This document shows positions 19,526-32,156 of a stretch of 64,000 bases of DNA, piece by piece. Origin of the DNA: Candidatus Thorarchaeota archaeon. GTDB lineage: Archaea > Asgardarchaeota > Thorarchaeia > Thorarchaeales > Thorarchaeaceae. The notes under the pieces were generated by a model, which worked only from the letters and a program-made list of their open reading frames with translations, was not told the DNA's origin and ran no database searches. The stretch spans positions 1 to 64,000 of the forward strand of contig RDOC01000004.1 in assembly GCA_011364985.1 (NCBI GenBank), read 5' to 3'. The position numbers and the translations under genes are program-made. Position 1 is the first letter of the stretch. Each line of letters starts with the position of its first letter.

Positions 19526-20107
19526 CTATGATGCGAGTCCACCTGCATCAAGAATTCTCAGGGCCAGCTCCAGGAAGGCAGCCTCAGCATTATGCCCGGT
19601 TTTGGCAGATGTTTCGAGAAAACTTGCATGGGTACCCTTGCTGGCAATCTTTTTTGCAAGAGCCTCTCCTTCTTCGGTTGTCACGATGGTCTGCTTCATT
19701 ACTGGATTGTCCTTGAACTGCTCTCGAAGGTCAATTTTGTTTCCAATGAGGACAACTGGTATCTTCCTTCCCGCGTTGGTCCAGCATTCTTCCAACCAGT
19801 TGTCCACATTATCAAAAGAAGACCGCTCAACAGTGGAATAGACGGCCAAAGCACCCTGAGCCCCTTTGTAAAAGGTATTGCGCACGTTTTTGAAGTGCTC
19901 TTGGCCAGCAAGGTCCCAAATCTGAATACTGACATCAAACCCTCCTTCCAATTGCATCTTCTTAACGGCGAAGTCAGCTCCAATTGTAATCATGTAATTG
20001 GCCTTGAAGCCTTCACCCATATACTGTCTTCTGAGACTTGTCTTTCCGACCGAACCATCACCCATAAGGATAACCTTAAACAACGCTGTGACCATCTCTC
20101 TCAGCAA
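19526..20107 (-). CDS. Rab-like small GTPase
   Basis: GDGSVGKT, TIGADF, WDLAGQ, NKID, ETSAK. Confidence 0.95.
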   Translation of the reverse strand: MLREMVTALFKVILMGDGSVGKTSLRRQYMGEGFKANYMITIGADFAVKKMQLEGGFDVSIQIWDLAGQEHFKNVRNTFYKGAQGALAVYSTVERSSFDNVDNWLEECWTNAGRKIPVVLIGNKIDLREQFKDNPVMKQTIVTTEEGEALAKKIASKGTHASFLETSAKTGHNAEAAFLELALRILDAGGLAS

Positions 20108-21698: not shown

Positions 21699-23966
21699 TT
21701 GATAGGAACTGGATGGCTACTTGACGCCAATGTAGACTTCCAGAAGGGGGTACTGACCCTCTGGATCAAGTCAGCCAGAACCACACGTGGGTATTCATAC
21801 AATTTCCATCCCTCAATCTTTGTGAGTATTGACCAGAAATCGGGTATAGAATGGACCAACAAAGACCTGCTTCGAACAGTGCAAGAGCATCCTAAGGTCA
21901 CACGGAGTAAGATTGTGCAACGGTTCGTCAGTGTCTATGATGATGTGATGAGACCAGTGCTGCAGGTATTCACAACGCCAGACGCTCATTGGGAAGTAGC
22001 AAGAGACCTCGAGCGATTACCAAACACCACTGTGTTTCATGCAGACATCGACCCCGTTCAGCAGTTCTTCATTGAAGAAGACGTATTTCCCTTTGGACGA
22101 GTGAGGTTTCAGACAAAGGGAGAGAAGATTGTGGAGTTGAGGTGTCTTGATAGGCGAGAAGACTCCAAGTATGCAGCGCCGGATCTTGATGAAATTGGCT
22201 TGGAGGTCTTTGTTGACACAGAGAGTATATTTCCCAGAATGGAAGACCCAATTCATCACATCGACCTGTTCCATGATGGGAAGACCTATCGAATCGAGGA
22301 GCATGATGAGAAGGCAATCCTAATCCAGTTTCAGGAAGCTATTGACACACTGGATCCGGATGTCATCGTGACGCAAGGAGGCGATGAGAATGTCTTTAGA
22401 TATCTAACACTTCGTGCAAAGTTACATGGCCTCCAACTTACTATGTCACGAGATGGAACACCACTGAAAGTAATGTACAAAGAACCGCAGTCATTCTGGC
22501 AGTACAACCAGATAGTATACAAGGCTGGCAACCAAGTGATGTTCAACGGGAGAATTCATATCGATCAGAAACGGAGCGCCTACTACTCGCCACAGGGCAT
22601 GGAAGGAGTCATCGAGGGGTGTAGACTCGCACTAGCCCAGCCCCAAAAGGTCGCCAGAATGTCAATCGGTACGGTGAATGCCTCTGTACAGTACTACAAT
22701 GCCTTCAAGATGGGAATTCTTATTCCATCCATTAAACGGAACCCGGAGTTTCTCAAGACGGTAACGGACTTAGCGATAATAGACCGAGGCGGCCTGATTC
22801 TTCAGCCGAAGCCGGATATCTACGACAATACTGCGGAGTGTGACTTCTCTTCAATGTATCCGACTCTCATGGTGACACGCAACATCAGCCCAGAGACCAT
22901 CTGTACACGGGCAGAATGCCCTTACGACTACAAGTACTGCATTGATGTTCCCGAGGTGAACTTCCGTCTTTGTGATCGAAAGCGAGGATTAGTTTCGAAG
23001 TCACTTGAACTGGTTGTACAAAAACGGAAGGACTTCAAGAAACTGATTGAGGAGGGACATGATGCAGAAAAATACGAGCGGATGCAGAACACTCTCAAAG
23101 GGATCTTGGTTTCTTGCTTTGGGTATCTTGGTTTCAAAAATGCCAAATTTGGCCGTGTAGAGGCACATACCGCCGTGACGGCACTGGCAAGAGAAGTTAT
23201 GCTAAGAACGCAAGAGATAGCAGAGAATGTGGGATTCGAACTGGTGCATGGTATCGTAGACTCGGTGTGGATTAGGTCAGGAGAGAAAATAGAGTATGAG
23301 AAGGTATTGGAATTCTGCCGGCAAGTCACAGAAGCAGTCGATATCGAGATGTTTCCGAAAGGCATCTACAGATGGCTGGTGATTCCATCATCACGCCTGC
23401 ATCCATCAATAGCTCCGCTGAACCGTTACTATGGCGTCTATAGGAATGGTGCAATAAAGACGAGAGGCATCGAAACGAGAAGACGCGACACATGTATCTA
23501 TGTGGGCGATTGCCAAAAGGAGATGATCAAGACCTTGGCCCAAGCTCGTAACAAATCCGAGTTCATTGAGCTAATTCCAGCCGCCTACTCAGTGTGCCGG
23601 AGGTTCATCAATAAACTGCATGAAGGCAATATCGATCTAAGAGACCTCATTTTGCATACCCGCCTCACCAGAGAACCAGATGCATACCAAGCAACATCCA
23701 GGGCAGCAATTGTTGCCAGACAACTTGTGGAGAATGGGAAGAGACTTCATGCAGGGCAGCAAGTACGCTATGTCATGGTGAGTGCAGACTCAGAGAGCCC
23801 AATGAGAAGAGTGCGAGCAATCGAGCTGCTTGATGAAACAACCCGTTATGACCCCGAGGCGTATGCAGCACTATGCCTGCGTGCATTTGAAAATCTCATC
23901 CCAAGTCAATACTTGCAGCAATCAACGATGACAGAAACTGACGAGGCAGTACAAGTTACTCTGTGA
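21699..23966 (+). CDS. polB2: Family B DNA polymerase, PolB2 subfamily
   Basis: DFSSMYP, K...VSCFGY, HGIVDS in place of YGDTDS, RGIE.RRRD. Confidence 0.9.
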   Translation: MIGTGWLLDANVDFQKGVLTLWIKSARTTRGYSYNFHPSIFVSIDQKSGIEWTNKDLLRTVQEHPKVTRSKIVQRFVSVYDDVMRPVLQVFTTPDAHWEVARDLERLPNTTVFHADIDPVQQFFIEEDVFPFGRVRFQTKGEKIVELRCLDRREDSKYAAPDLDEIGLEVFVDTESIFPRMEDPIHHIDLFHDGKTYRIEEHDEKAILIQFQEAIDTLDPDVIVTQGGDENVFRYLTLRAKLHGLQLTMSRDGTPLKVMYKEPQSFWQYNQIVYKAGNQVMFNGRIHIDQKRSAYYSPQGMEGVIEGCRLALAQPQKVARMSIGTVNASVQYYNAFKMGILIPSIKRNPEFLKTVTDLAIIDRGGLILQPKPDIYDNTAECDFSSMYPTLMVTRNISPETICTRAECPYDYKYCIDVPEVNFRLCDRKRGLVSKSLELVVQKRKDFKKLIEEGHDAEKYERMQNTLKGILVSCFGYLGFKNAKFGRVEAHTAVTALAREVMLRTQEIAENVGFELVHGIVDSVWIRSGEKIEYEKVLEFCRQVTEAVDIEMFPKGIYRWLVIPSSRLHPSIAPLNRYYGVYRNGAIKTRGIETRRRDTCIYVGDCQKEMIKTLAQARNKSEFIELIPAAYSVCRRFINKLHEGNIDLRDLILHTRLTREPDAYQATSRAAIVARQLVENGKRLHAGQQVRYVMVSADSESPMRRVRAIELLDETTRYDPEAYAALCLRAFENLIPSQYLQQSTMTETDEAVQVTL

Positions 23967-25320
23967 CTGCATGAGCCTGCATTGCAATCCTGGGCTTAAG
24001 CTCACGTACAGGAATACCTGTTTCTTGGGAGACCTTCATCACATCATCTGCTTCGGGCTTGATGTTGATGATACTGCCGTCCAGTCCCCTAGAGACCTTT
24101 ACCCGGACCATGTATTCCTTGCCGTCTACTTCAAACTTGCAGACGATTGTTTCTCTGGCCGCTTTTAATCGCTCCCAAGTGGTGTAACGAATCCCAATGG
24201 TACCAAGATGCCGAATCATTACTTCCGCAATACTCTTCAGACCAGTTTTTGCTGCAATGACCTTTATCACATAGCATGGACGATTCTTCTTCCCGTAGGC
24301 GGGAATCATGACAACATCATAGGCAAGACCTTCCGATAGCAGTGTGTCAAAAAGCGTACCCATAACTTCTCCATCAATGTCATCGACATTGGTCTCAATG
24401 ACCATAACATCATCAGCATTCCATGCATCAATCATATCGGACCGATCCTCTTTTGCTTTGGATGGTGTCTTTTCCTCCTTTGTCGGCTGCTTCTCCACTC
24501 GCCTGTCTTTGGGCTCTACCGAGCTTTCTTTTGCAGCAGTAAGCTCAGGAGTTGCATCCTCACAGAAATCACCCACCATTACTTTCATGTAGTTGACAAC
24601 ATCCCCCAAGTCCCGAGAGCCAAAACCAACGCCCTGTTGCCGTGCGATGAATCCTTCTGAAGATTCGACATACTCCTGAGCAAGAGAAACTAATATGGCG
24701 GCTCCAGTGGGAGTTAGCACCTCGGTCTTTGCATCTCCCATTACAAAAGGAACCTCGTTAGCAACCAGGATTTCCGCAACGGCAGGAACTGGAACCTCCA
24801 AAGGTCCATGCTCAGTATTGATGGTTCCACTTCCTACTGCAACATGTGTGGAGATGAATTTTGAATCCTTGAGCAAGCCTGCATGTTCCAAGAGGTATGC
24901 TGTTCCTACGATATCCAGAATTGTATCAATTGAGCCTGTTTCGTGAAGATGCAGCTTCTCAATGGGGGTCTCGTGTGCCCGTGATTCAGCCTCTAGGATC
25001 TCTTTGAGCGCACGCTCAGCAATCTGTTTTGCAGCCTGAGAGAGTTCAAGCTCTTCGGAAATCGAGCTTAGAATCTCAAGCATCGAGGGCGGGTTCAATC
25101 GAATGGATTCATCCCTCGACATAACAAGTCGATATCCGTTAATACTCTCTTCAGATTTGGTTTCAAAACTGACTCTCAGCGTCGGATCAACAATCAACAG
25201 ACTGGCTGCAACAGGAAGCAGAGAATCACGTTCTCCGATAAGGCCCACTAGGGCAGAGAGAAACATGTCTCCAGATGCTCCTGCTGTTCTGACATCAAGA
25301 ACAATCGTGGTGCTAACCAA
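23956..25320 (-). CDS. larC: Nickel pincer cofactor biosynthesis protein LarC
   Basis: GASGDM, HLHE, HG..PVPA, TPTGAA, ETNVDD, KKNRP, KPE.DD. Confidence 0.92.
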   Translation of the reverse strand: MVSTTIVLDVRTAGASGDMFLSALVGLIGERDSLLPVAASLLIVDPTLRVSFETKSEESINGYRLVMSRDESIRLNPPSMLEILSSISEELELSQAAKQIAERALKEILEAESRAHETPIEKLHLHETGSIDTILDIVGTAYLLEHAGLLKDSKFISTHVAVGSGTINTEHGPLEVPVPAVAEILVANEVPFVMGDAKTEVLTPTGAAILVSLAQEYVESSEGFIARQQGVGFGSRDLGDVVNYMKVMVGDFCEDATPELTAAKESSVEPKDRRVEKQPTKEEKTPSKAKEDRSDMIDAWNADDVMVIETNVDDIDGEVMGTLFDTLLSEGLAYDVVMIPAYGKKNRPCYVIKVIAAKTGLKSIAEVMIRHLGTIGIRYTTWERLKAARETIVCKFEVDGKEYMVRVKVSRGLDGSIINIKPEADDVMKVSQETGIPVRELKPRIAMQAHAVTE

Positions 25321-25552: not shown

Positions 25553-26371
25553 CTACATTCGTTTCCCGCGCGCTGGTCCCCCAGCCACCGAGCCGCTTGT
25601 TCGCCACTGCTCAAAGATTGCCATATACATGCACTCTTGGGGCGATATCCACATCTCAGAGGAGTCAAATGATTCATCAACAAACTCAACTGGGGCATCC
25701 TTAAGAAGCACTGCAGGAATAGACTCATCGGATTCTCCCATGACAGCTGTGCAAGTAGAGGCAAGATTGTCAGCGATTGCCCTTCGAGTAATGCGGAGCT
25801 CATTCCCAAAGAGGTCTTTGCGACCCCTATCGTCCGCAACAGGCTTGAATCCTGCGACAGCAAGCGCCATTCCTATGTTTCCTAGGCGCAGAGGCTGAGT
25901 CCGGCTATCGATAATCATTACACCAATTCGCTTTCCATACCTCTCGAAGACATCCTTTCTTAAGCGCTCTGCGCTCTCCCGGGGATTTTTCGGAAGAAGT
26001 GACGCAGATCCTTGGGGCACGTTTGACTTGTCTACTCCGGCGTTCGCCATGAGTGTGTTGTCCTTGATTGTTAGAACAACATGGGGAATGCCACCAAGGA
26101 TTTCATCAGCCTCGTCAAGGATGAGCTGTGCCACCTCTGGCAGCAGGACATAGTCTTCAGAGATTTCTTGTGCTTGTTCAGACACCACAACTTCATTCAG
26201 CTTAACGACGCGTCCCTCTGTTGTGCCAAGAGGGGTCTCCGCCACTCCAAGTATGTCACCATCCTCAAGCCTATGGTTTGAGTTCTTCAGCGCTTCAACC
26301 AGAACTTGCAGCAAGTCATCTCCACTGATAATCACTCGTGTCTTGATTGGAATAGCAAGCAGCTCTGCCAC
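25553..26371 (-). CDS. cofE: Coenzyme F420-0:L-glutamate ligase family protein
   Basis: ANAGVDKSN, DSRTQPLRLG, DLFG..L..T..A.AD, MGE.DE. Confidence 0.88.
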   Translation of the reverse strand: MAELLAIPIKTRVIISGDDLLQVLVEALKNSNHRLEDGDILGVAETPLGTTEGRVVKLNEVVVSEQAQEISEDYVLLPEVAQLILDEADEILGGIPHVVLTIKDNTLMANAGVDKSNVPQGSASLLPKNPRESAERLRKDVFERYGKRIGVMIIDSRTQPLRLGNIGMALAVAGFKPVADDRGRKDLFGNELRITRRAIADNLASTCTAVMGESDESIPAVLLKDAPVEFVDESFDSSEMWISPQECMYMAIFEQWRTSGSVAGGPARGKRM

Positions 26372-26443: not shown

Positions 26444-27838
26444 CTATTTGCTGGGCCGCCTTTGAAGGTCACTCCTTGCGTTCATGATGCAGGCATCACC
26501 TTTTCGTCCGCCCATGGGGTGCCGTGGAGTACCAAGAGAATTCATGCATCTTGCAGCTACTGCAGCCCCCATAGCCAGACCATCGTGCACGAAGAGAAGC
26601 TCTCTTTCCGGAGATTCTTTGGACAGCAACTCCCGTATCATCTGAGGTTTTCTTCCGGTGAGAATTGCCCTTCCTGTAAATCCAAGACTGGTCTCAGGCA
26701 GAAGTAGGTTCTCTTCCCTAGCCAATCCAACTAGACGCTGCACAAGCCTTGCTTGTACATAGTCTATAATGGAGAGGAGAAAATCAACATTGCCTTCATT
26801 TGTGATGCGACGACCAATCTCTTCTAATTCATCTAGTCTTGATCCATTAGTTCCAACATCAACACCAATTAGGACAACATTAGCATCGGCTGCAGCCGCC
26901 GGATTTACAGGAACTGTCCCGAATCTCTTTCCAGAAGTAATCCGTCGTACTTCGATCAATCGATGTATCTCCTCAACAAAATCGGGATCTGGCTCAACCG
27001 GGTTTTGCCTTTTTGGCAGAATGTCTAGCGTGCAGACGGTTGGGTCCTGTTCCAAAGAAGATCCCCTAGCTACTGCGTCTGGAATGGCCCCAGCAAGTCC
27101 CGTGAAGGAACCGATTGTCCGGGCGTATGGATACTCGTTATTCGTAATCCTTCCAGCCAAGGTGGTTCCGAAGTCAAGGGTGAGAACTGGGTTTCTGAAA
27201 TCAACCGATGTGCTCCTTGCAGCACCCTTCAAACCCGCAGTAACCAGTTCACCTTCCATTTCGTTTGCTACTATGTCGGTACTTGCAGGAGGAAGAGAAC
27301 TTGCAACGGCACCGTCAAAGTATACCTTCTTGAGCCATGAGAAATTGCGCAGTCCTGGGGGTAAGTTGTCTAGCGAGATCGAGGCGGTCATCTTTCGTGG
27401 AGGAACGCCAGCCCGCAAACAGCCCTCTGCAAGTGCTTTGACCATTATTCCTACTTCTGAGGGATGTGCGAATCCTGCTGTCACCCCAGTGGACCGAACT
27501 ACGAAATGCAAGTCTCGCTCAAGGTCGACTCGTGCACGTGACAGCGTAGTCTTTAGCACATCCGAAACGAATTCGCAGACAGATTCGGAAGTAAATGGTA
27601 CCCCCGATATTGTCGTTCCAAAGACCTGCTCATTGTCTTTAGGAGGACGGACATCCCGAGTCATTCTAACCTCCTTTTCGATCTCGAATATCTCGGCTGT
27701 CTTGAGATTTGTAGATACCAGAATGCATTTTGTTGTCGTGTTGCCCAATTCAACTGAAGCCACGGTATAGAATGGACCAGTCCTCAAAGATGCAACTCCG
27801 ATTTGCCGAGGTGTGATAATCCCAGAGGCAACAACCAT
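26444..27838 (-). CDS. Methanogenesis marker protein 14 (DUF2114)-like
   Basis: VASVELGNTTTKCIL, MTRDVRPP, FVVRSTGV, NEMEGELVTAG, DFGTTLAG, ARCMNSLG. Confidence 0.85.
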   Translation of the reverse strand: MVVASGIITPRQIGVASLRTGPFYTVASVELGNTTTKCILVSTNLKTAEIFEIEKEVRMTRDVRPPKDNEQVFGTTISGVPFTSESVCEFVSDVLKTTLSRARVDLERDLHFVVRSTGVTAGFAHPSEVGIMVKALAEGCLRAGVPPRKMTASISLDNLPPGLRNFSWLKKVYFDGAVASSLPPASTDIVANEMEGELVTAGLKGAARSTSVDFRNPVLTLDFGTTLAGRITNNEYPYARTIGSFTGLAGAIPDAVARGSSLEQDPTVCTLDILPKRQNPVEPDPDFVEEIHRLIEVRRITSGKRFGTVPVNPAAAADANVVLIGVDVGTNGSRLDELEEIGRRITNEGNVDFLLSIIDYVQARLVQRLVGLAREENLLLPETSLGFTGRAILTGRKPQMIRELLSKESPERELLFVHDGLAMGAAVAARCMNSLGTPRHPMGGRKGDACIMNARSDLQRRPSK

Positions 27839-27851
27839 GGTCTTCTCATCC

Positions 27852-28787
27852 TTAGAGCAACTTGCGGAATGGGTGGCCCTCTACAGGGTCAATCCCGAAC
27901 TCCATCTTCACACTCTCGGCTGAAAAGACATCAGCCATGGCCACAACTGGGAAGACCTTGTCGGCATAGGCAATTGGACCATAGAGAAGGAAATCAGCAC
28001 CCATGAGGTGAGCTATAAGATTAGATGCAATATCGCAAGTCTTGTAGGCATCTCTATCCATCTTCTTGTAGCTCCGTAGCCATGGCCAAGATGAGGGAGC
28101 ATTATGAACTCCCGAACCAGTTGGATGTCCATATAGCGATTTTGAAACAAAAACGAAAGAGGCTGCAGTACCTGCACCGGCACCCATCGCCGTTGTGGCT
28201 GTGTCAATCAACGGTTTTGTGATTCCAAGCTCCTGAGCCAACTCAAGCAGTCCCGTCTCAAGTTGAAGAGCGCCCTCTTCCAAAATGGCTCTTCTGCCAG
28301 CAATTGATGCATCTTGAGGATTGAAAGCGAGAATGATGGCTGCCTCGTGTTGCATCTCCTGAAGCGCATCAAGTTCATTCTGTGCCGCTGAAGCTCCTAC
28401 GGAATTGTATACAGCTCTATCTAGCAACCCAACTTCCTCAGAATATCTTAATCCAGCGATACGAACATTTGGCTCTGTTGAACCAATGAGAAAGGGGGCA
28501 TCTGTCTTCTCGCTCACAAAATCAATATATCTGGAAATGGCGCTTTGAGAATTCGAGAATATCTGCACAAGCGCAGGATTTCCAGTCATGTCCGACATCT
28601 CATCTTGTTTTGAGATCAATTCCTCAGCAGCCTTGTGGTCGAACAGACCCCTTTCAGGATCTTGCACGATTTTGTCACCTGAGTAGAATATTGTTCCGGC
28701 AAGAGCCGTTGAATACTCCCCAGGCATTCCTCCAATCCTGACTTCACCGATGTTGTACACGTACTGCTCCTTTTCAAAAACAAACAT
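27852..28787 (-). CDS. mtrH: MtrH/MtxH-type pterin:corrinoid methyltransferase
   Basis: FEKEQ...IGG.PGE....LAGTIFY, YNS, G.HNAPS, GADFLLYGPI. Confidence 0.9.
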   Translation of the reverse strand: MFVFEKEQYVYNIGEVRIGGMPGEYSTALAGTIFYSGDKIVQDPERGLFDHKAAEELISKQDEMSDMTGNPALVQIFSNSQSAISRYIDFVSEKTDAPFLIGSTEPNVRIAGLRYSEEVGLLDRAVYNSVGASAAQNELDALQEMQHEAAIILAFNPQDASIAGRRAILEEGALQLETGLLELAQELGITKPLIDTATTAMGAGAGTAASFVFVSKSLYGHPTGSGVHNAPSSWPWLRSYKKMDRDAYKTCDIASNLIAHLMGADFLLYGPIAYADKVFPVVAMADVFSAESVKMEFGIDPVEGHPFRKLL

Positions 28788-28790
28788 GGT

Positions 28791-29474
28791 CTATAGCTCC
28801 TTTCCAAATAATAGCGTCCCAGTATCTGTCATGCGAACTTCCACACCAATTGATGACGGATGTATCGATAACAATGCGTGATTCTCTTGCACTCCAATGA
28901 GAGACGATGCGGGATCTAGTGAAATCCCAAATTCGGGAAGCAGCAATATTGACTCGCTAAGGCTTCGGTATTTTCTAGCACTAGGAGCAGCACCAAATTC
29001 CACCCACATGGCAGCTTTAGGATATTCTCCAGGGTTTCTAGTCGCCAAATCCTTTACAATGCGTGATATTTCCTCGACATCCGAGTTGTTTATCATATCG
29101 ATAAGTTCGACTTGGCTCCTGAATCGTTCTACAGCCTCATAGGGGATATTCTCAATGTATGGTATCGCTCCAGGAGCATTATTGATTCTTCTTGTTTCTG
29201 AATCAATACCCGAGGTATAGAGTGCTTTCAGCGAACGACCAGTGAGATGACCTGGAACCTCAGGACCAGCCAAGACGAGAAAGCGGATTGAGGCATTGGA
29301 GATCACATTGACGATGACTCGCTCTATGCCGATATTCTCTGTCTTACAAGTACCGGCTATTCCATAGTCTTCTGGAATATCCAGCCTCTTACCAAGAGTA
29401 CAAATAGCGACCGGCATTCTTGGATTCTTTACATGGAAATCCCCTGGGATTGGTGGCCAAGCATTATCCGACAT
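28791..29474 (-). CDS. mtrA: MtrA/MtxA-type corrinoid protein without membrane anchor
   Basis: WPPIPGDF, KTENIGIE, EVPGH (Co-ligand His), GAIPYIEN, ERF..QVE. Confidence 0.9.
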   Translation of the reverse strand: MSDNAWPPIPGDFHVKNPRMPVAICTLGKRLDIPEDYGIAGTCKTENIGIERVIVNVISNASIRFLVLAGPEVPGHLTGRSLKALYTSGIDSETRRINNAPGAIPYIENIPYEAVERFRSQVELIDMINNSDVEEISRIVKDLATRNPGEYPKAAMWVEFGAAPSARKYRSLSESILLLPEFGISLDPASSLIGVQENHALLSIHPSSIGVEVRMTDTGTLLFGKEL

Positions 29475-29488
29475 CTGTGATCCTTCTC

Positions 29489-30409
29489 CTATTCGAAAGT
29501 AAGTGGTTCAAACAAGTTCCGGTCAATTCCCAACACCTGTTGGGCTTCTGTCACAGCAGCAGCTATTGCATTACCTATTAGGGCAGTGGCAGTGAATACT
29601 TCCTTCGTTCGAACCATTGAGCCATACATGATGCAATCGGTTGCCGACATCTGAGCTGCAATCGTCGATGCAATTATGGCGGCCATATGTGTGGGTTCAT
29701 CGTCAAAACCATCTTGCTTGATAAACCTCCAAGCAGATGGAGCATTATGGGGTGCAAGACAAGTGGGTAGACCCAGTTCTGCCTTAATTGCCAAAATAGC
29801 TCGATAGTCCAGCCCATAGCCAGCTCCAACAGGAAGCGTCGCAGGGTCTATCAACATTTTCTTGATGCCCATATTCTCCGCCGTTGCTATCGAGCTCTGG
29901 ATAGTCTCCATTCTCTCAGAGAGTGAAGTTGCTCGAGGCGACCAACCAAGCACAACAGCCATGTGTATCAAGCTATTCTGAAGGGCAAGTTTCTCATCAT
30001 CCTTCATTGAAAGATTGATTGAATTGTAGATGGCACGTTCACTCAGACCCGCTTCCTCACAGAATTCGATTGCCTTCATTCTTGCCTTTGCGTTGGTCGA
30101 TTCAAACATGAAAGGCCCATCGTAGTTCTTGACAAGCCAAGATAGATGCCGTTCCATTGCAAGCTCATTTCGTCCAAAGGCCTGGAGAATCAATGGATGA
30201 CCAGTCTTTTCCATCATCACCTGTCCAGTGTCAATCCATCTCTTAGCCAATTCCTTGTCGAATAGACCCTCCTTTGTGTTTTCCACAATTGGCTGGCCTT
30301 TGAAGAATAGACCACCGACCAAGGTCGTTGGATTCTCGCCGGGTTGGCCCCCAATGATTACGCCTCCGAAATCAGTTGCCTTCTGTTCTTTCTTGAACAA
30401 ATACATCAT
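29489..30409 (-). CDS. Second, divergent MtrH-like methyltransferase
   Basis: FKKEQ...IGGQPGENPT, IYNSIN, PHNAPSAW. Confidence 0.85.
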   Translation of the reverse strand: MMYLFKKEQKATDFGGVIIGGQPGENPTTLVGGLFFKGQPIVENTKEGLFDKELAKRWIDTGQVMMEKTGHPLILQAFGRNELAMERHLSWLVKNYDGPFMFESTNAKARMKAIEFCEEAGLSERAIYNSINLSMKDDEKLALQNSLIHMAVVLGWSPRATSLSERMETIQSSIATAENMGIKKMLIDPATLPVGAGYGLDYRAILAIKAELGLPTCLAPHNAPSAWRFIKQDGFDDEPTHMAAIIASTIAAQMSATDCIMYGSMVRTKEVFTATALIGNAIAAAVTEAQQVLGIDRNLFEPLTFE

Positions 30410-30413
30410 AGCT

Positions 30414-31331
30414 TCACCTTAAGATTGGTCTGGGATAAAGATTGCATGCCTCAACCAGCCCAGGAATACTTTCTTCCCAGCCTACGCTCATAATATGAAC
30501 ACCGTGAACTCCCTGTATGTTTCGAACCGCATTTATCGTTTCTTCAGCAATTAGCAGACCTTCAGCGCAAATTGCAGCTTTCTTCTCCTTACTCTCAAGG
30601 CCAGCTCCTGCTTTTTCAAGTCGCGAGACAACTTCATCAGGAATGCGCATCCCGGGAATCCTTGTTCGCATGAATTGCGCCATTTTTTTGCTTCGGAGAG
30701 GTATGATTCCTGCTAGAACCTTCACGTTCAGCGGACGCACCTTGGTCATGAAGATTTGGAACCGTTCTAGGTCATAAATGGCTTGAGTTTGGAAGAATTT
30801 GGCTCCTGCGTCTCGCTTCTTTTCTACTCTCCAAGCCTGAAGCTCCAGAGGATCTGCAAAGGGATTGAAGGTAGCCCCCAGAAAGAACTCCGGCACCCCT
30901 TCGAGCTCTGCACCTGAAAGATCGGTGCCCCCCATAAGATGCTTCGCCAGCTGAATAGCTTGAACTGAATCCAAATCAAAGACAGTCTTTGTCTGGGGAT
31001 GTGTTCCTAATAATGAATGGTCCCCAGTAATGAAAACTATATTGCGTATACCCAATGCGTAAGCTCCATAGAGCTGGCTCTCGTAGAGAACACGATTTCG
31101 GTCTCTCGCCGACATCTGCATAATGGGCTCTGCTCCCGTCTTCAGAATGAAGTGGGCACAAATGCCACTATCCATAGTAGGTATTCCACGAACATTATCA
31201 GTGATGTTAATCGCGTCACAGTAATCCTTCACTAGTCGTATTCGTTCCTCTATCAGAGTATGGTCAGCACCGTGCGGAGGAGCAACTTCACAGGTCACCA
31301 CAAACGATTCCGAATTCAGTAGCCGCTCCAA
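30414..31331 (-). CDS. metF: Methylenetetrahydrofolate reductase
   Basis: NITDN, RDRNR, TGDH, DLDS, FQTQAIYD, AGIIP. Confidence 0.92.
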   Translation of the reverse strand: MERLLNSESFVVTCEVAPPHGADHTLIEERIRLVKDYCDAINITDNVRGIPTMDSGICAHFILKTGAEPIMQMSARDRNRVLYESQLYGAYALGIRNIVFITGDHSLLGTHPQTKTVFDLDSVQAIQLAKHLMGGTDLSGAELEGVPEFFLGATFNPFADPLELQAWRVEKKRDAGAKFFQTQAIYDLERFQIFMTKVRPLNVKVLAGIIPLRSKKMAQFMRTRIPGMRIPDEVVSRLEKAGAGLESKEKKAAICAEGLLIAEETINAVRNIQGVHGVHIMSVGWEESIPGLVEACNLYPRPILR

Positions 31332-31430
31332 TCGTGATATTGACAGGACTTCTCACTCCTTGCAAAGGACGATTCCGAAAGGCCGCATGCATTACTTAAT
31401 TCCTTCGTCAGGACCTCCGCCGATAATTCG

Positions 31431-32156
31431 CTAGAAATCCTCATGAATAATGGTTCGAGGACTGTGAGAGAGGCTACGGTCTCTAATTCCCCAAATTCGC
31501 CTTATGTTGTCAAGTTTCCCAAGGGATTGCAGCCGATTATAGATAAGTTGCCAAACACAATCCGTTTCCCCATCACGCTCACATTTGCCATCCATCGACC
31601 CTCCACAGGGTCCATTTAGCATTCCCTTAGCACATCGTGCAATGGGACAAATGCCAGCAGTGAGATGAAGAACGCATTCTCCACACATGACGCATGTTTC
31701 ATGATGAACAAAACGTTCAGGCATGACACCCAAGAAGATCGAATCGACGGCTGGAAAGGACTCCTTTTCAGGAATCAAATCTGTCACCACTTGCGTTGCA
31801 ACTCCACAGGCCTGAATAAGAAACGCATCTGCTTCTCTGAGCATATTCATGTTATCATTGATCTCAAGCGTTGTCGCATGAATGTCACATAGACCGCCCT
31901 CGACGAAAACATAGCCCAGCACCTTCTTGTTATTCTGGATTAAGAAGTCCTCCATAGCCTCAAGTTGAAGGATACCTCCCACATCACAAAGCTGTGCACA
32001 ACCGGAGTCACCAAAAAGAACTATCTTCTCGTATCCTTCCAGCATTTCGAGAATGTCTGCATTGGGCTTCAATTTCATTACGATCGTGTGTGGCACCTCA
32101 GTAAATGAATTCAGAAGAAGGCGGCATAAAAGGGATTGGTTCGGGGTTGAGCTCAC
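31431..32156 (-). CDS. metV: MetV (MTHFR Fe-S/Zn small subunit)
   Basis: C..CGEC.L..TAGICP..RCAK..LNGPCGG...GKCE, CVW; start probably nearer 32078. Confidence 0.88.
   Translation of the reverse strand: MSSTPNQSLLCRLLLNSFTEVPHTIVMKLKPNADILEMLEGYEKIVLFGDSGCAQLCDVGGILQLEAMEDFLIQNNKKVLGYVFVEGGLCDIHATTLEINDNMNMLREADAFLIQACGVATQVVTDLIPEKESFPAVDSIFLGVMPERFVHHETCVMCGECVLHLTAGICPIARCAKGMLNGPCGGSMDGKCERDGETDCVWQLIYNRLQSLGKLDNIRRIWGIRDRSLSHSPRTIIHEDF

What the first reader, a model, noticed from the sequence alone, without database searches (positions are those of the whole stretch)
26444..32156. metV-metF-mtrH'-mtrA-mtrH-marker14 operon: putative soluble methyl shuttle between folate and methanopterin pools
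Seen: six co-directional, tightly spaced genes. Bacterial-type MetVF lies directly upstream of two different MtrH-like methyltransferases that flank an anchor-less MtrA. No mtrCDE or mcr is in the window; cofE follows. Established: MtrH moves methyl groups between a pterin and the MtrA corrinoid; MetVF makes methyl-THF; some Asgard lineages have both THF and H4MPT C1 branches. Inference: one MtrH serves methyl-THF and the other methyl-H4MPT (or another donor), giving a corrinoid bridge between the two C1 carriers without Na+ pumping.
Basis: partly seen in the sequence, partly recalled or inferred. Interest (0 to 1): 0.7.

Follow-up and report, generated by a model that had tools for sequence, protein, structure and literature searches.

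The report
Membrane-free vitamin B12 methyl relay
A group of Asgard archaea (Thorarchaeia) keeps a membrane-free remnant of the methanogens' sodium-pumping methyl-transfer machine, in which two diverged copies of one enzyme probably pass methyl groups between two one-carbon carriers through vitamin B12; this is unproven, and in this genome one copy has lost a key catalytic residue.

Summary
The six genes are real. The core mtrH'-mtrA-mtrH-marker14 was intact in all 20 Thorarchaeia loci examined; MtrE is in 0 of 87 genomes. MtrAH plus marker 14 in Thorarchaeia is published (Adam 2022), and this scan noted the operon in at least 8 other windows.

New here:
(1) MtrA's tail resembles the MtrB N-terminus that docks the MtrH dimer (weak but reciprocal hits).
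(2) MtrH' groups with MtrH, not with the folate enzyme MtgA. The copies split MtrH's features: MtrH' keeps the MtrB-docking Arg and corrinoid contacts but has Glu for the catalytic Asp and lacks the methanopterin-tail lysines; MtrH keeps Asp and lysines.
(3) In this genome and one sister, MtrH has Asp102Gly yet stays under purifying selection; this genome's mer is cleanly deleted.
(4) Methanopterin synthesis genes are mostly absent (MptG 1/87), ACS is patchy (41/87), and MetV (29/87) is almost exclusive with ACS.

Best reading: a tethered, soluble folate-to-methanopterin methyl exchanger (about 0.42), probably crippled in this lineage. Carrier specificity is not shown.

The parts
31431..32156 (-). 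metV, Cys-rich FeS partner of MetF; accessory (29/87 genomes), nearly exclusive with ACS
   Evidence: PF12225 E 3e-32
30414..31331 (-). metF, methylene-tetrahydropterin reductase; one copy per genome, directly upstream of mtrH' in 18/20 loci
   Evidence: PF02219
29489..30409 (-). mtrH' (H1), divergent MtrH: Gly33, Gln76, Glu103, Asn129, Asp188, His221, Asn222; corrinoid contacts Trp156, Leu192, Pro193; MtrB-docking Arg203; lacks the two tail lysines
28791..29474 (-). mtrA, corrinoid carrier (His76), flexible linker about 164-171, no membrane anchor
28794..28961 (-). MtrA C-terminal tail (residues 172-227), four beta-strands; the first half resembles the MtrB N-terminus (invariant Pro180-Glu181 matches MtrB Pro8-Glu9)
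27852..28787 (-). mtrH (H2), canonical-type MtrH with Thr32 and the basic tail patch Arg238/Lys241/Lys242; lacks the MtrB-docking Arg
28482..28484 (-). Codon 102 of mtrH is GGT (Gly) where relatives have the catalytic Asp; shared with one sister species
26444..27838 (-). methanogenesis marker 14 (DUF2114, m26 of Adam et al.), ASKHA-like fold, candidate ATP-dependent corrinoid reactivase
25553..26371 (-). cofE, F420:glutamate ligase; usual neighbour, not shown to be part of the system

Best explanation
The operon encodes a soluble methyl exchanger derived from the methanogen Mtr complex. The membrane half (MtrCDEFG and the helices of MtrA and MtrB) was lost; the MtrB strands that grip the MtrH dimer were kept, fused to the end of MtrA. 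MtrH duplicated and the copies specialised. MtrA's tail docks on the MtrH'/MtrH pair (probably a heterodimer), and its corrinoid domain swings on a flexible linker between two pterin sites. MtrH takes or gives methyl on a methanopterin-type carrier; MtrH' does so on folate, made or oxidised by MetF. Marker 14 reactivates the corrinoid with ATP. The reaction is reversible and pumps no ions. In ACS-bearing lineages it would feed methyl from the folate branch to ACS; in ACS-less, MetV-bearing lineages it would drain methyl into the folate branch (FolD, Fhs). Shown: gene content, conservation, absence of MtrE, the residue split, tree position, tail-MtrB similarity (modest E-values). Inferred: heterodimer, tail docking, both carriers, direction, reactivase role. 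In this genome and its sister the methanopterin half is probably crippled (Gly102; mer deleted here) and MtrH may persist mainly as a partner subunit.
For: Core contiguous in 20/20 loci and tail in 70/76 family genomes plus one other Asgard family. MtrE 0/87. Tail profile: top PDB hit among 177,635 sequences is MtrB residues 7-26, E 0.018; against 1,465 ORFs of 80 Methanosarcinales mtr loci, 49 hits at E<0.01, at least 42 MtrB, best 1.6e-4; the reverse MtrB profile ranks five Thorarchaeia MtrA tails first, best E 0.0097. MtrB Glu9 pairs with MtrH Arg211 (PMC12774963): that Arg is in 45/45 MtrH' and 0/48 MtrH. Corrinoid contacts Phe156/Met200/Pro201 (bioRxiv 10.64898/2026.07.03.736320) are Trp, Met/Leu, Pro in 45/45 MtrH'; ring residues Asn129, Asp196, His229, Asn230 are in 46/46 rows, so MtrH' looks active. 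The basic patch proposed for the H4MPT tail is kept in MtrH (47/49 and 46/48 basic) and lost in MtrH'. A complete folate branch is present: Fhs 81/87, FolD 5/5, FolP and GcvT in this genome. No AcsE-like, MetH or MetE match in 5 genomes. 24 ACS+ genomes lack Mer and 22 of them have MetF. Loss of mer and of Asp102 coincide in this genome (one lineage only).
Against: MtrH' groups with MtrH/MtxH, not MtgA (split 100/99), and lacks the MtgA folate-tail aromatics Tyr230, Phe243, Phe251, Trp272: folate specificity rests only on loss of the lysines and linkage to metF. MptG 1/87 and MptH 14/87: H4MPT must be scavenged, or only one pterin exists. Asgard MetF may be ANME-1-type and act on H4MPT (not tested here). 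The operon persists in high-quality genomes lacking Mer, Mtd and ACS (G022, G053, G076) and where MetF was not found (G010, G014). MtrH with Gly102 is under purifying selection like its neighbours (dN 0.117, dN/dS about 0.04 with saturated dS), which fits a structural role. This genome's own MtrA was not among the hits of the reverse MtrB profile.
Confidence: 0.42

Rival explanations
1. One-carrier funnel. MetF(V) is an ANME-1-type reductase that replaces Mer and acts on the same pterin as both MtrH copies. The MtrA corrinoid exchanges methyl between that pterin and an outside partner (ACS corrinoid protein or a substrate-specific methyltransferase), as the published 'funnel into the Wood-Ljungdahl pathway' idea holds.
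For: PMC9012536 places Asgard MetF with ANME-1 MetF. Mer is in only 41/87 while MetF is in 75/87. MtrH' has the MtrH-type Gln75/His229 signature and tree position. H4MPT synthesis genes are mostly missing, so one pterin pool is possible. PMC9635834 proposes the funnel role.
Against: It does not explain two paralogs with opposite, nearly invariant tail and ring signatures. Many genomes have both Mer and MetF. ACS is absent from 12 of 17 genera that mostly keep the operon. No other corrinoid partner was found in this assembly, which is 74% complete.
Confidence: 0.25
2. One catalytic and one scaffold subunit. The asymmetry of the methanogen MtrH dimer (only the proximal copy meets MtrA) was fixed genetically; one paralog mainly provides the dimer and tail-docking surface, and the methyl on MtrA goes to or comes from a protein encoded elsewhere.
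For: Only the proximal MtrH binds MtrA in Mtr. MtrH with Gly102 is shared by two species and stays under purifying selection. MtrH' has Glu and Gly at two ring-binding positions, rare in the family (Glu in 2/94 representatives, one being MtrH' itself). Some Thorarchaeia carry another tandem MtrH-family pair with one degenerate copy (L062).
Against: Class-wide both copies keep the ring residues, and each keeps corrinoid-side contacts. Of 119 MtrH homologues checked only one shares Gly102. No second half-reaction enzyme lies in the operon.
Confidence: 0.2
3. Salvage or unknown donor. The module unloads the methyl group from scavenged methyl-methanopterin (or from a non-pterin donor bound by MtrH') at low flux, for cofactor recycling or biosynthesis rather than catabolism.
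For: Thorarchaeia keep Mch (81/87) and Mtd (59/87) but mostly lack MptG and MptH. The operon is more constant than ACS, Mer, Mtd or MetV.
Against: No direct evidence; expression could not be checked. The pterin-ring residues of MtrH' are invariant, arguing against a non-pterin donor.
Confidence: 0.1

Closest known systems
Mtr complex of methanogens (MtrA-H; PDB 8Q3V, 9QTP/9QTS)
   Same: MtrA corrinoid domain with its His; canonical-type MtrH; MtrB-like docking strands; associated marker 14 (m26).
   Different: No MtrE in 87 genomes; no membrane helix on MtrA; docking strands fused to MtrA; two diverged MtrH genes; metF upstream; no Mcr found.
Thorarchaeia 'canonical MtrAH' remnant with m26 (Adam et al. 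2022, PMC9635834)
   Same: The same genes: MtrA, MtrH and DUF2114 without the other subunits.
   Different: The passages read do not mention the second paralog, the metF linkage, the MtrB-like tail or the residue split; the proposed role is a generic methyltransferase.
MtxAH of Methanosarcinales (mtxXAH; PMC12978539)
   Same: MtrA/MtrH paralog pair outside the mtr operon, function unresolved; MtxH falls on the same side of the tree.
   Different: One MtrH-like gene, partner MtxX (marker 4) rather than marker 14; MtxH keeps the Asp.
MtgA of Desulfitobacterium and Methermicoccus MtxA/MtoA-type (corrinoid:pterin methyltransferases; 6SK4, 8Z9U)
   Same: Same TIM-barrel fold (TM 0.85-0.87) and ring residues; MtrH' keeps the basic residue matching MtgA Arg236.
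   Different: Other side of a 100/99 tree split; they work with Rossmann B12 proteins and RACo activators. Thorarchaeia have such copies at separate loci (L062-L081).
MtrAH fusions of Atabeyarchaeia and Freyarchaeia (PMC11291895)
   Same: Non-methanogen Asgard MtrA/MtrH without MtrE.
   Different: There MtrA and MtrH are one polypeptide; the tail profile found nothing convincing in about 220 other Asgard genomes except G094.
MetVF of acetogens and ANME-1 (PMC9012536)
   Same: metV beside metF.
   Different: No hdr or mvh genes adjacent; metV is missing from two thirds of the class.

Membership tests
Mtr (Na+-pumping methyl-H4MPT:CoM methyltransferase) | Integral membrane subunits MtrCDE | tested here: not met
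   MtrE 0/87 with controls ringing; MtrC and MtrD not searched
Mtr (Na+-pumping methyl-H4MPT:CoM methyltransferase) | MtrA with C-terminal membrane anchor | tested here: not met
Mtr (Na+-pumping methyl-H4MPT:CoM methyltransferase) | MtrA cobalt-ligand His motif | tested here: met
   His76 invariant in 21/21
Canonical MtrH (window mtrH) | TIGR01114 above cut-off, grouping with methanogen MtrH | tested here: met
   391 vs 271 bits; tree
Canonical MtrH (window mtrH) | Catalytic Asp103 (M. mazei numbering) | tested here: not met
   Gly in this genome and one sister; Asp in the other orthologues read
Canonical MtrH (window mtrH) | Basic patch Arg239/Lys242/Lys243 for the H4MPT tail | tested here: met
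MtgA-type corrinoid:THF methyltransferase (window mtrH') | NF047990 cut-off or grouping with MtgA-like sequences | tested here: not met
   164 vs 550 bits; 100/99 split (MtgA itself was not in the tree, look-alikes were identified by signature residues)
MtgA-type corrinoid:THF methyltransferase (window mtrH') | Folate-tail residues Tyr230, Arg236, Phe243, Phe251, Trp272 | tested here: not met
   Only the Arg236 equivalent (Lys231) is kept
MtgA-type corrinoid:THF methyltransferase (window mtrH') | Uses H4F as methyl acceptor | not testable with these tools
   needs an assay
MtxAH | Operon with mtxX (marker 4) | tested here: not met
   The neighbour is DUF2114
MtrB N-terminal docking segment (MtrA tail) | Profile similarity to MtrB residues 1-25 with Pro-Glu | tested here: met
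   E 0.018 in PDB, 1.6e-4 in mtr loci, 0.0097 reverse; modest values
MtrB N-terminal docking segment (MtrA tail) | Binds the MtrH dimer | not testable with these tools
   needs a pull-down or a structure
ASKHA corrinoid reactivase (marker 14) | ASKHA fold and likeness to EutA/RACo-type factors | tested here: inconclusive
   Atlas: EutA clusters at 0.83 (lead only); TM about 0.5 to ASKHA proteins; no PDB sequence hit
ANME-1-type MetF (proposed H4MPT-reactive) | Groups with ANME-1 MetF | not tested
   Homologue list was filled by Thorarchaeia; literature statement only

The most novel reading that the evidence does not exclude
Thorarchaeia possess a dedicated methyl-H4F:H4MPT methyltransferase: an MtrH'/MtrH heterodimer with a self-tethered MtrA, built from a dismantled sodium pump, which couples a home-made folate pool to a scavenged methanopterin pool, with marker 14 as its (and Mtr's) corrinoid reactivase.
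Probability: 0.3. Interest if true: 0.8.

Novelty: new variant of a known kind. Interest (0 to 1): 0.56.

Why it matters
The function of MtrAH outside methanogens is called unclear in the literature (PMC9635834). This operon gives a small, soluble, fully encoded test case with named residues to mutate. If the bridge is real it is a direct methyl-level link between the folate and methanopterin pools, which I do not know from any described enzyme (own knowledge; none turned up in the paper searches). It would also show how an ion pump became a cytoplasmic shuttle, and could give marker 14 a function. The genome survey also weakens the usual picture of Thorarchaeia as holding two complete Wood-Ljungdahl branches: ACS is in 8 of 24 high-quality genomes and MptG in 1 of 87.

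Tried and rejected
Full membrane Mtr elsewhere: rejected, MtrE 0/87.

MtrH' as a recruited MtgA: rejected by tree and residues.

Gly102 as an assembly error: rejected; the Logan assembly of SRR11241199 has the same codon (possibly the same reads) and an 81%-identical sister gene also has Gly.

mer missing only through incompleteness: rejected; its flanking genes lie 131 bp apart on contig C13, where G010, G058 and G068 have mer between them.

Methionine synthesis as the sink: no MetE or MetH homocysteine domain in 5 genomes.

Complex prediction of MtrH + MtrH' + tail gave no verdict (score 0.12); it is not used as evidence either way.

The MtdB search was uninformative because its control was silent. 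Promoter and terminator scans were at chance level. Liu 2018 and Maden 2000 could not be read, so the redox potentials are from my own knowledge. No ANME-1 MetF was obtained for a tree.
Full report
Source and observation. The window is contig C17 of a 1.70 Mb, 74%-complete genome. Close homologues are named Candidatus Thorarchaeota. Six minus-strand ORFs match MetV, MetF, MtrH, MtrA, MtrH and DUF2114, with cofE behind them. Gaps from metF on are 4, 14, 3 and 13 bp. The MtrH copies are 33% identical. I call the upstream one MtrH' and the downstream one MtrH.

Conservation. MtrH-family genes occur in 84 of 87 class genomes. In 20 loci from 14 genera the core mtrH'-mtrA-mtrH-marker14 is always contiguous; metF is directly upstream in 18. 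MetF is single-copy in 75/87; MetV is in only 29/87. One genome of another Asgard family has mtrH'-mtrA-mtrH. MtrE is in 0/87 and McrA in 0/5. Third and fourth MtrH-family copies lie elsewhere, beside Rossmann B12 proteins, RACo activators and a URO-D protein, so they belong to ordinary methylotrophic systems; this assembly has none.

MtrA carries an MtrB-like tail. After the corrinoid domain and a flexible linker (low confidence at 164-171) come four predicted beta-strands and no membrane helix. Pro180-Glu181 is invariant in 21 sequences. A profile of the tail finds MtrB residues 7-26 as its best PDB match (E 0.018). Against 1,465 ORFs from 80 Methanosarcinales mtr loci it gives 49 hits below E 0.01, at least 42 of them MtrB; the reverse profile ranks five Thorarchaeia MtrA tails first, though not this genome's own. 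Pfam MtrB hits 3 of 21 full-length MtrA weakly. In M. mazei Mtr, MtrB residues 1-23 hold the MtrH dimer, with a Glu9-Arg211 salt bridge (PMC12774963). The similarity is modest in E-value but consistent across searches. That the tail docks on MtrH is inference.

The paralogs divide MtrH's features. Using M. mazei numbering, both keep Gln75, Asn129, Asp196, His229 and Asn230 in nearly all sequences. MtrH keeps Thr32, Asp103 and the basic patch 239/242/243 proposed to bind the H4MPT tail. MtrH' has Gly32 and Glu103 and has lost Lys242 and Lys243. Conversely Arg211 is in 45/45 MtrH' and 0/48 MtrH, and the corrinoid contacts Phe156, Met200, Pro201 are Trp, Met/Leu and Pro in all MtrH', while MtrH keeps Phe156 and mostly Glu79. 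MtrH' folds as a confident TIM barrel closest to MtrH (pLDDT 91.6, TM 0.89; MtgA 0.87). An IQ-TREE split of 100/99 puts MtrH' with MtrH and MtxH and apart from MtgA-like sequences and the extra Thorarchaeia copies; its exact place inside that group is unresolved (representatives named). It lacks the aromatic residues with which MtgA grips the folate tail. So MtrH' looks active and different in substrate, but nothing shows the substrate is folate.

This genome is a special case. Codon 102 of mtrH is Gly, not Asp. In MtgA the equivalent Asp102Ala abolishes activity (PMC7154762). The codon recurs in the Logan assembly and in a sister gene at 81% identity; the other homologues that could be read at this site have Asp. 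The sister has the whole operon, and mtrH shows purifying selection like its neighbours (dN 0.117; dS saturated). The mer gene is cleanly deleted from its syntenic site on C13. No Mtd, ACS or MptH was found, but the assembly is incomplete. The simplest reading is that the methanopterin half is weakened here and MtrH is kept at least partly as a partner subunit; a Gly102 enzyme with residual activity is not excluded.

Metabolic context in the class. The folate branch is near-universal: Fhs 81/87 and 24/24 high-quality genomes, FolD 5/5, and FolP beside GcvT here. The methanopterin branch is patchy: Mch 81, Mtd 59, Mer 41 and ACS 41 of 87. MptG passes cut-off in 1/87 and MptH matches in 14/87, so H4MPT is scavenged, made by an unknown route, or replaced by another pterin. 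No AcsE-like, MetH or MetE match appeared in five genomes. 24 ACS-bearing genomes lack Mer, 22 of which have MetF. MetV and ACS overlap in one genome only (28 MetV only, 40 ACS only), also within genera g1 and g12; kin are not independent. Three high-quality genomes keep the operon without Mer, Mtd or ACS; no reading explains that well.

How it most likely works. MtrA's tail holds the corrinoid domain on an MtrH'/MtrH pair. The domain swings between two pterin sites, as it swings between MtrH and MtrCDE in Mtr. MetF supplies or removes methyl-H4F at MtrH'; MtrH handles the methanopterin-type carrier; marker 14, with an ASKHA-like fold and weak EutA likeness, restores the cobalt. From my own knowledge of the potentials (about -200 mV for methylene/methyl-H4F, about -320 mV for H4MPT), transfer toward folate is downhill, while NAD(P)H-driven MetF could push it the other way to feed ACS. 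Every step after gene content and residue pattern is inference; I give it 0.42. A one-carrier funnel with an ANME-1-type MetF (PMC9012536) gets 0.25, one catalytic plus one scaffold subunit 0.2, and a salvage role 0.1.

What is known. Adam et al. 2022 report canonical MtrAH without other subunits in Thorarchaeia, call the role of MtrAH unclear, and tie m26 (DUF2114) to it. Thorarchaeia are reported to hold both THF and H4MPT branch genes, with cdh missing from one well-assembled genome (PMC6737245). I found no paper describing the paralog pair, the metF linkage or the tail. This scan noted the operon in at least eight other windows with the same bridge idea; those notes are not independent support.

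Verdict. A real, class-wide, soluble derivative of Mtr: a new variant of a known kind, not a member of Mtr proper. The bridge is plausible and directly testable but unproven, and this genome is a poor example of it. Interest 0.56.

Noticed in passing
class-wide: MetV and ACS are almost mutually exclusive in Thorarchaeia: 1 genome has both, 28 MetV only, 40 ACS only.
   Followed up: partly
class-wide: H4MPT-using enzymes are common but MptG (1/87) and MptH (14/87) are rare, suggesting scavenging or another pterin.
   Followed up: partly
G000 contig C13:3606-3738: Clean deletion of mer between two flanking genes that enclose it in relatives.
   Followed up: yes
L062:3299-5143 and L063:1211-3055: Tandem MtrH-family pair beside a B12 protein and a URO-D protein; in L062 the first copy has lost Asp103, Asp196 and Asn230, a likely pseudo-enzyme partner.
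   Followed up: partly
L058:7780-9852, L061:7698-11399, L114:3170-6916: Family 5 solute-binding protein genes inserted just upstream of metF, between metV and metF in L058.
   Followed up: no
fhs of G015, G019, G021 (TGA) and fhs, mtd of G058 (TAG): In-frame stops inside conserved genes, TGA in three genomes of one genus; recoding, selenocysteine or errors.
   Followed up: no
L092:3-593: Next to the operon of the non-Thorarchaeia Asgard genome G094 lies an ORF with PLMP and Arg-rich motifs, IscB-like by eye; not tested.
   Followed up: no
L098 (G000:C15:249336-253046): Bacterial-type dihydropteroate synthase with a C-terminal extension (404 aa), divergent from gcvT.
   Followed up: no
window 19526-20107 (-): Ras-family small GTPase (PF00071), an Asgard eukaryotic-signature type gene.
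   Followed up: no
window 23956-25320 (-) and 21699-23966 (+): LarC with an internal low-complexity linker and a family B polymerase; both are conserved neighbours of the operon.
   Followed up: no
L123-L202: Marker 14 does not lie within 7 kb of mtrH in 80 Methanosarcinales loci.
   Followed up: no
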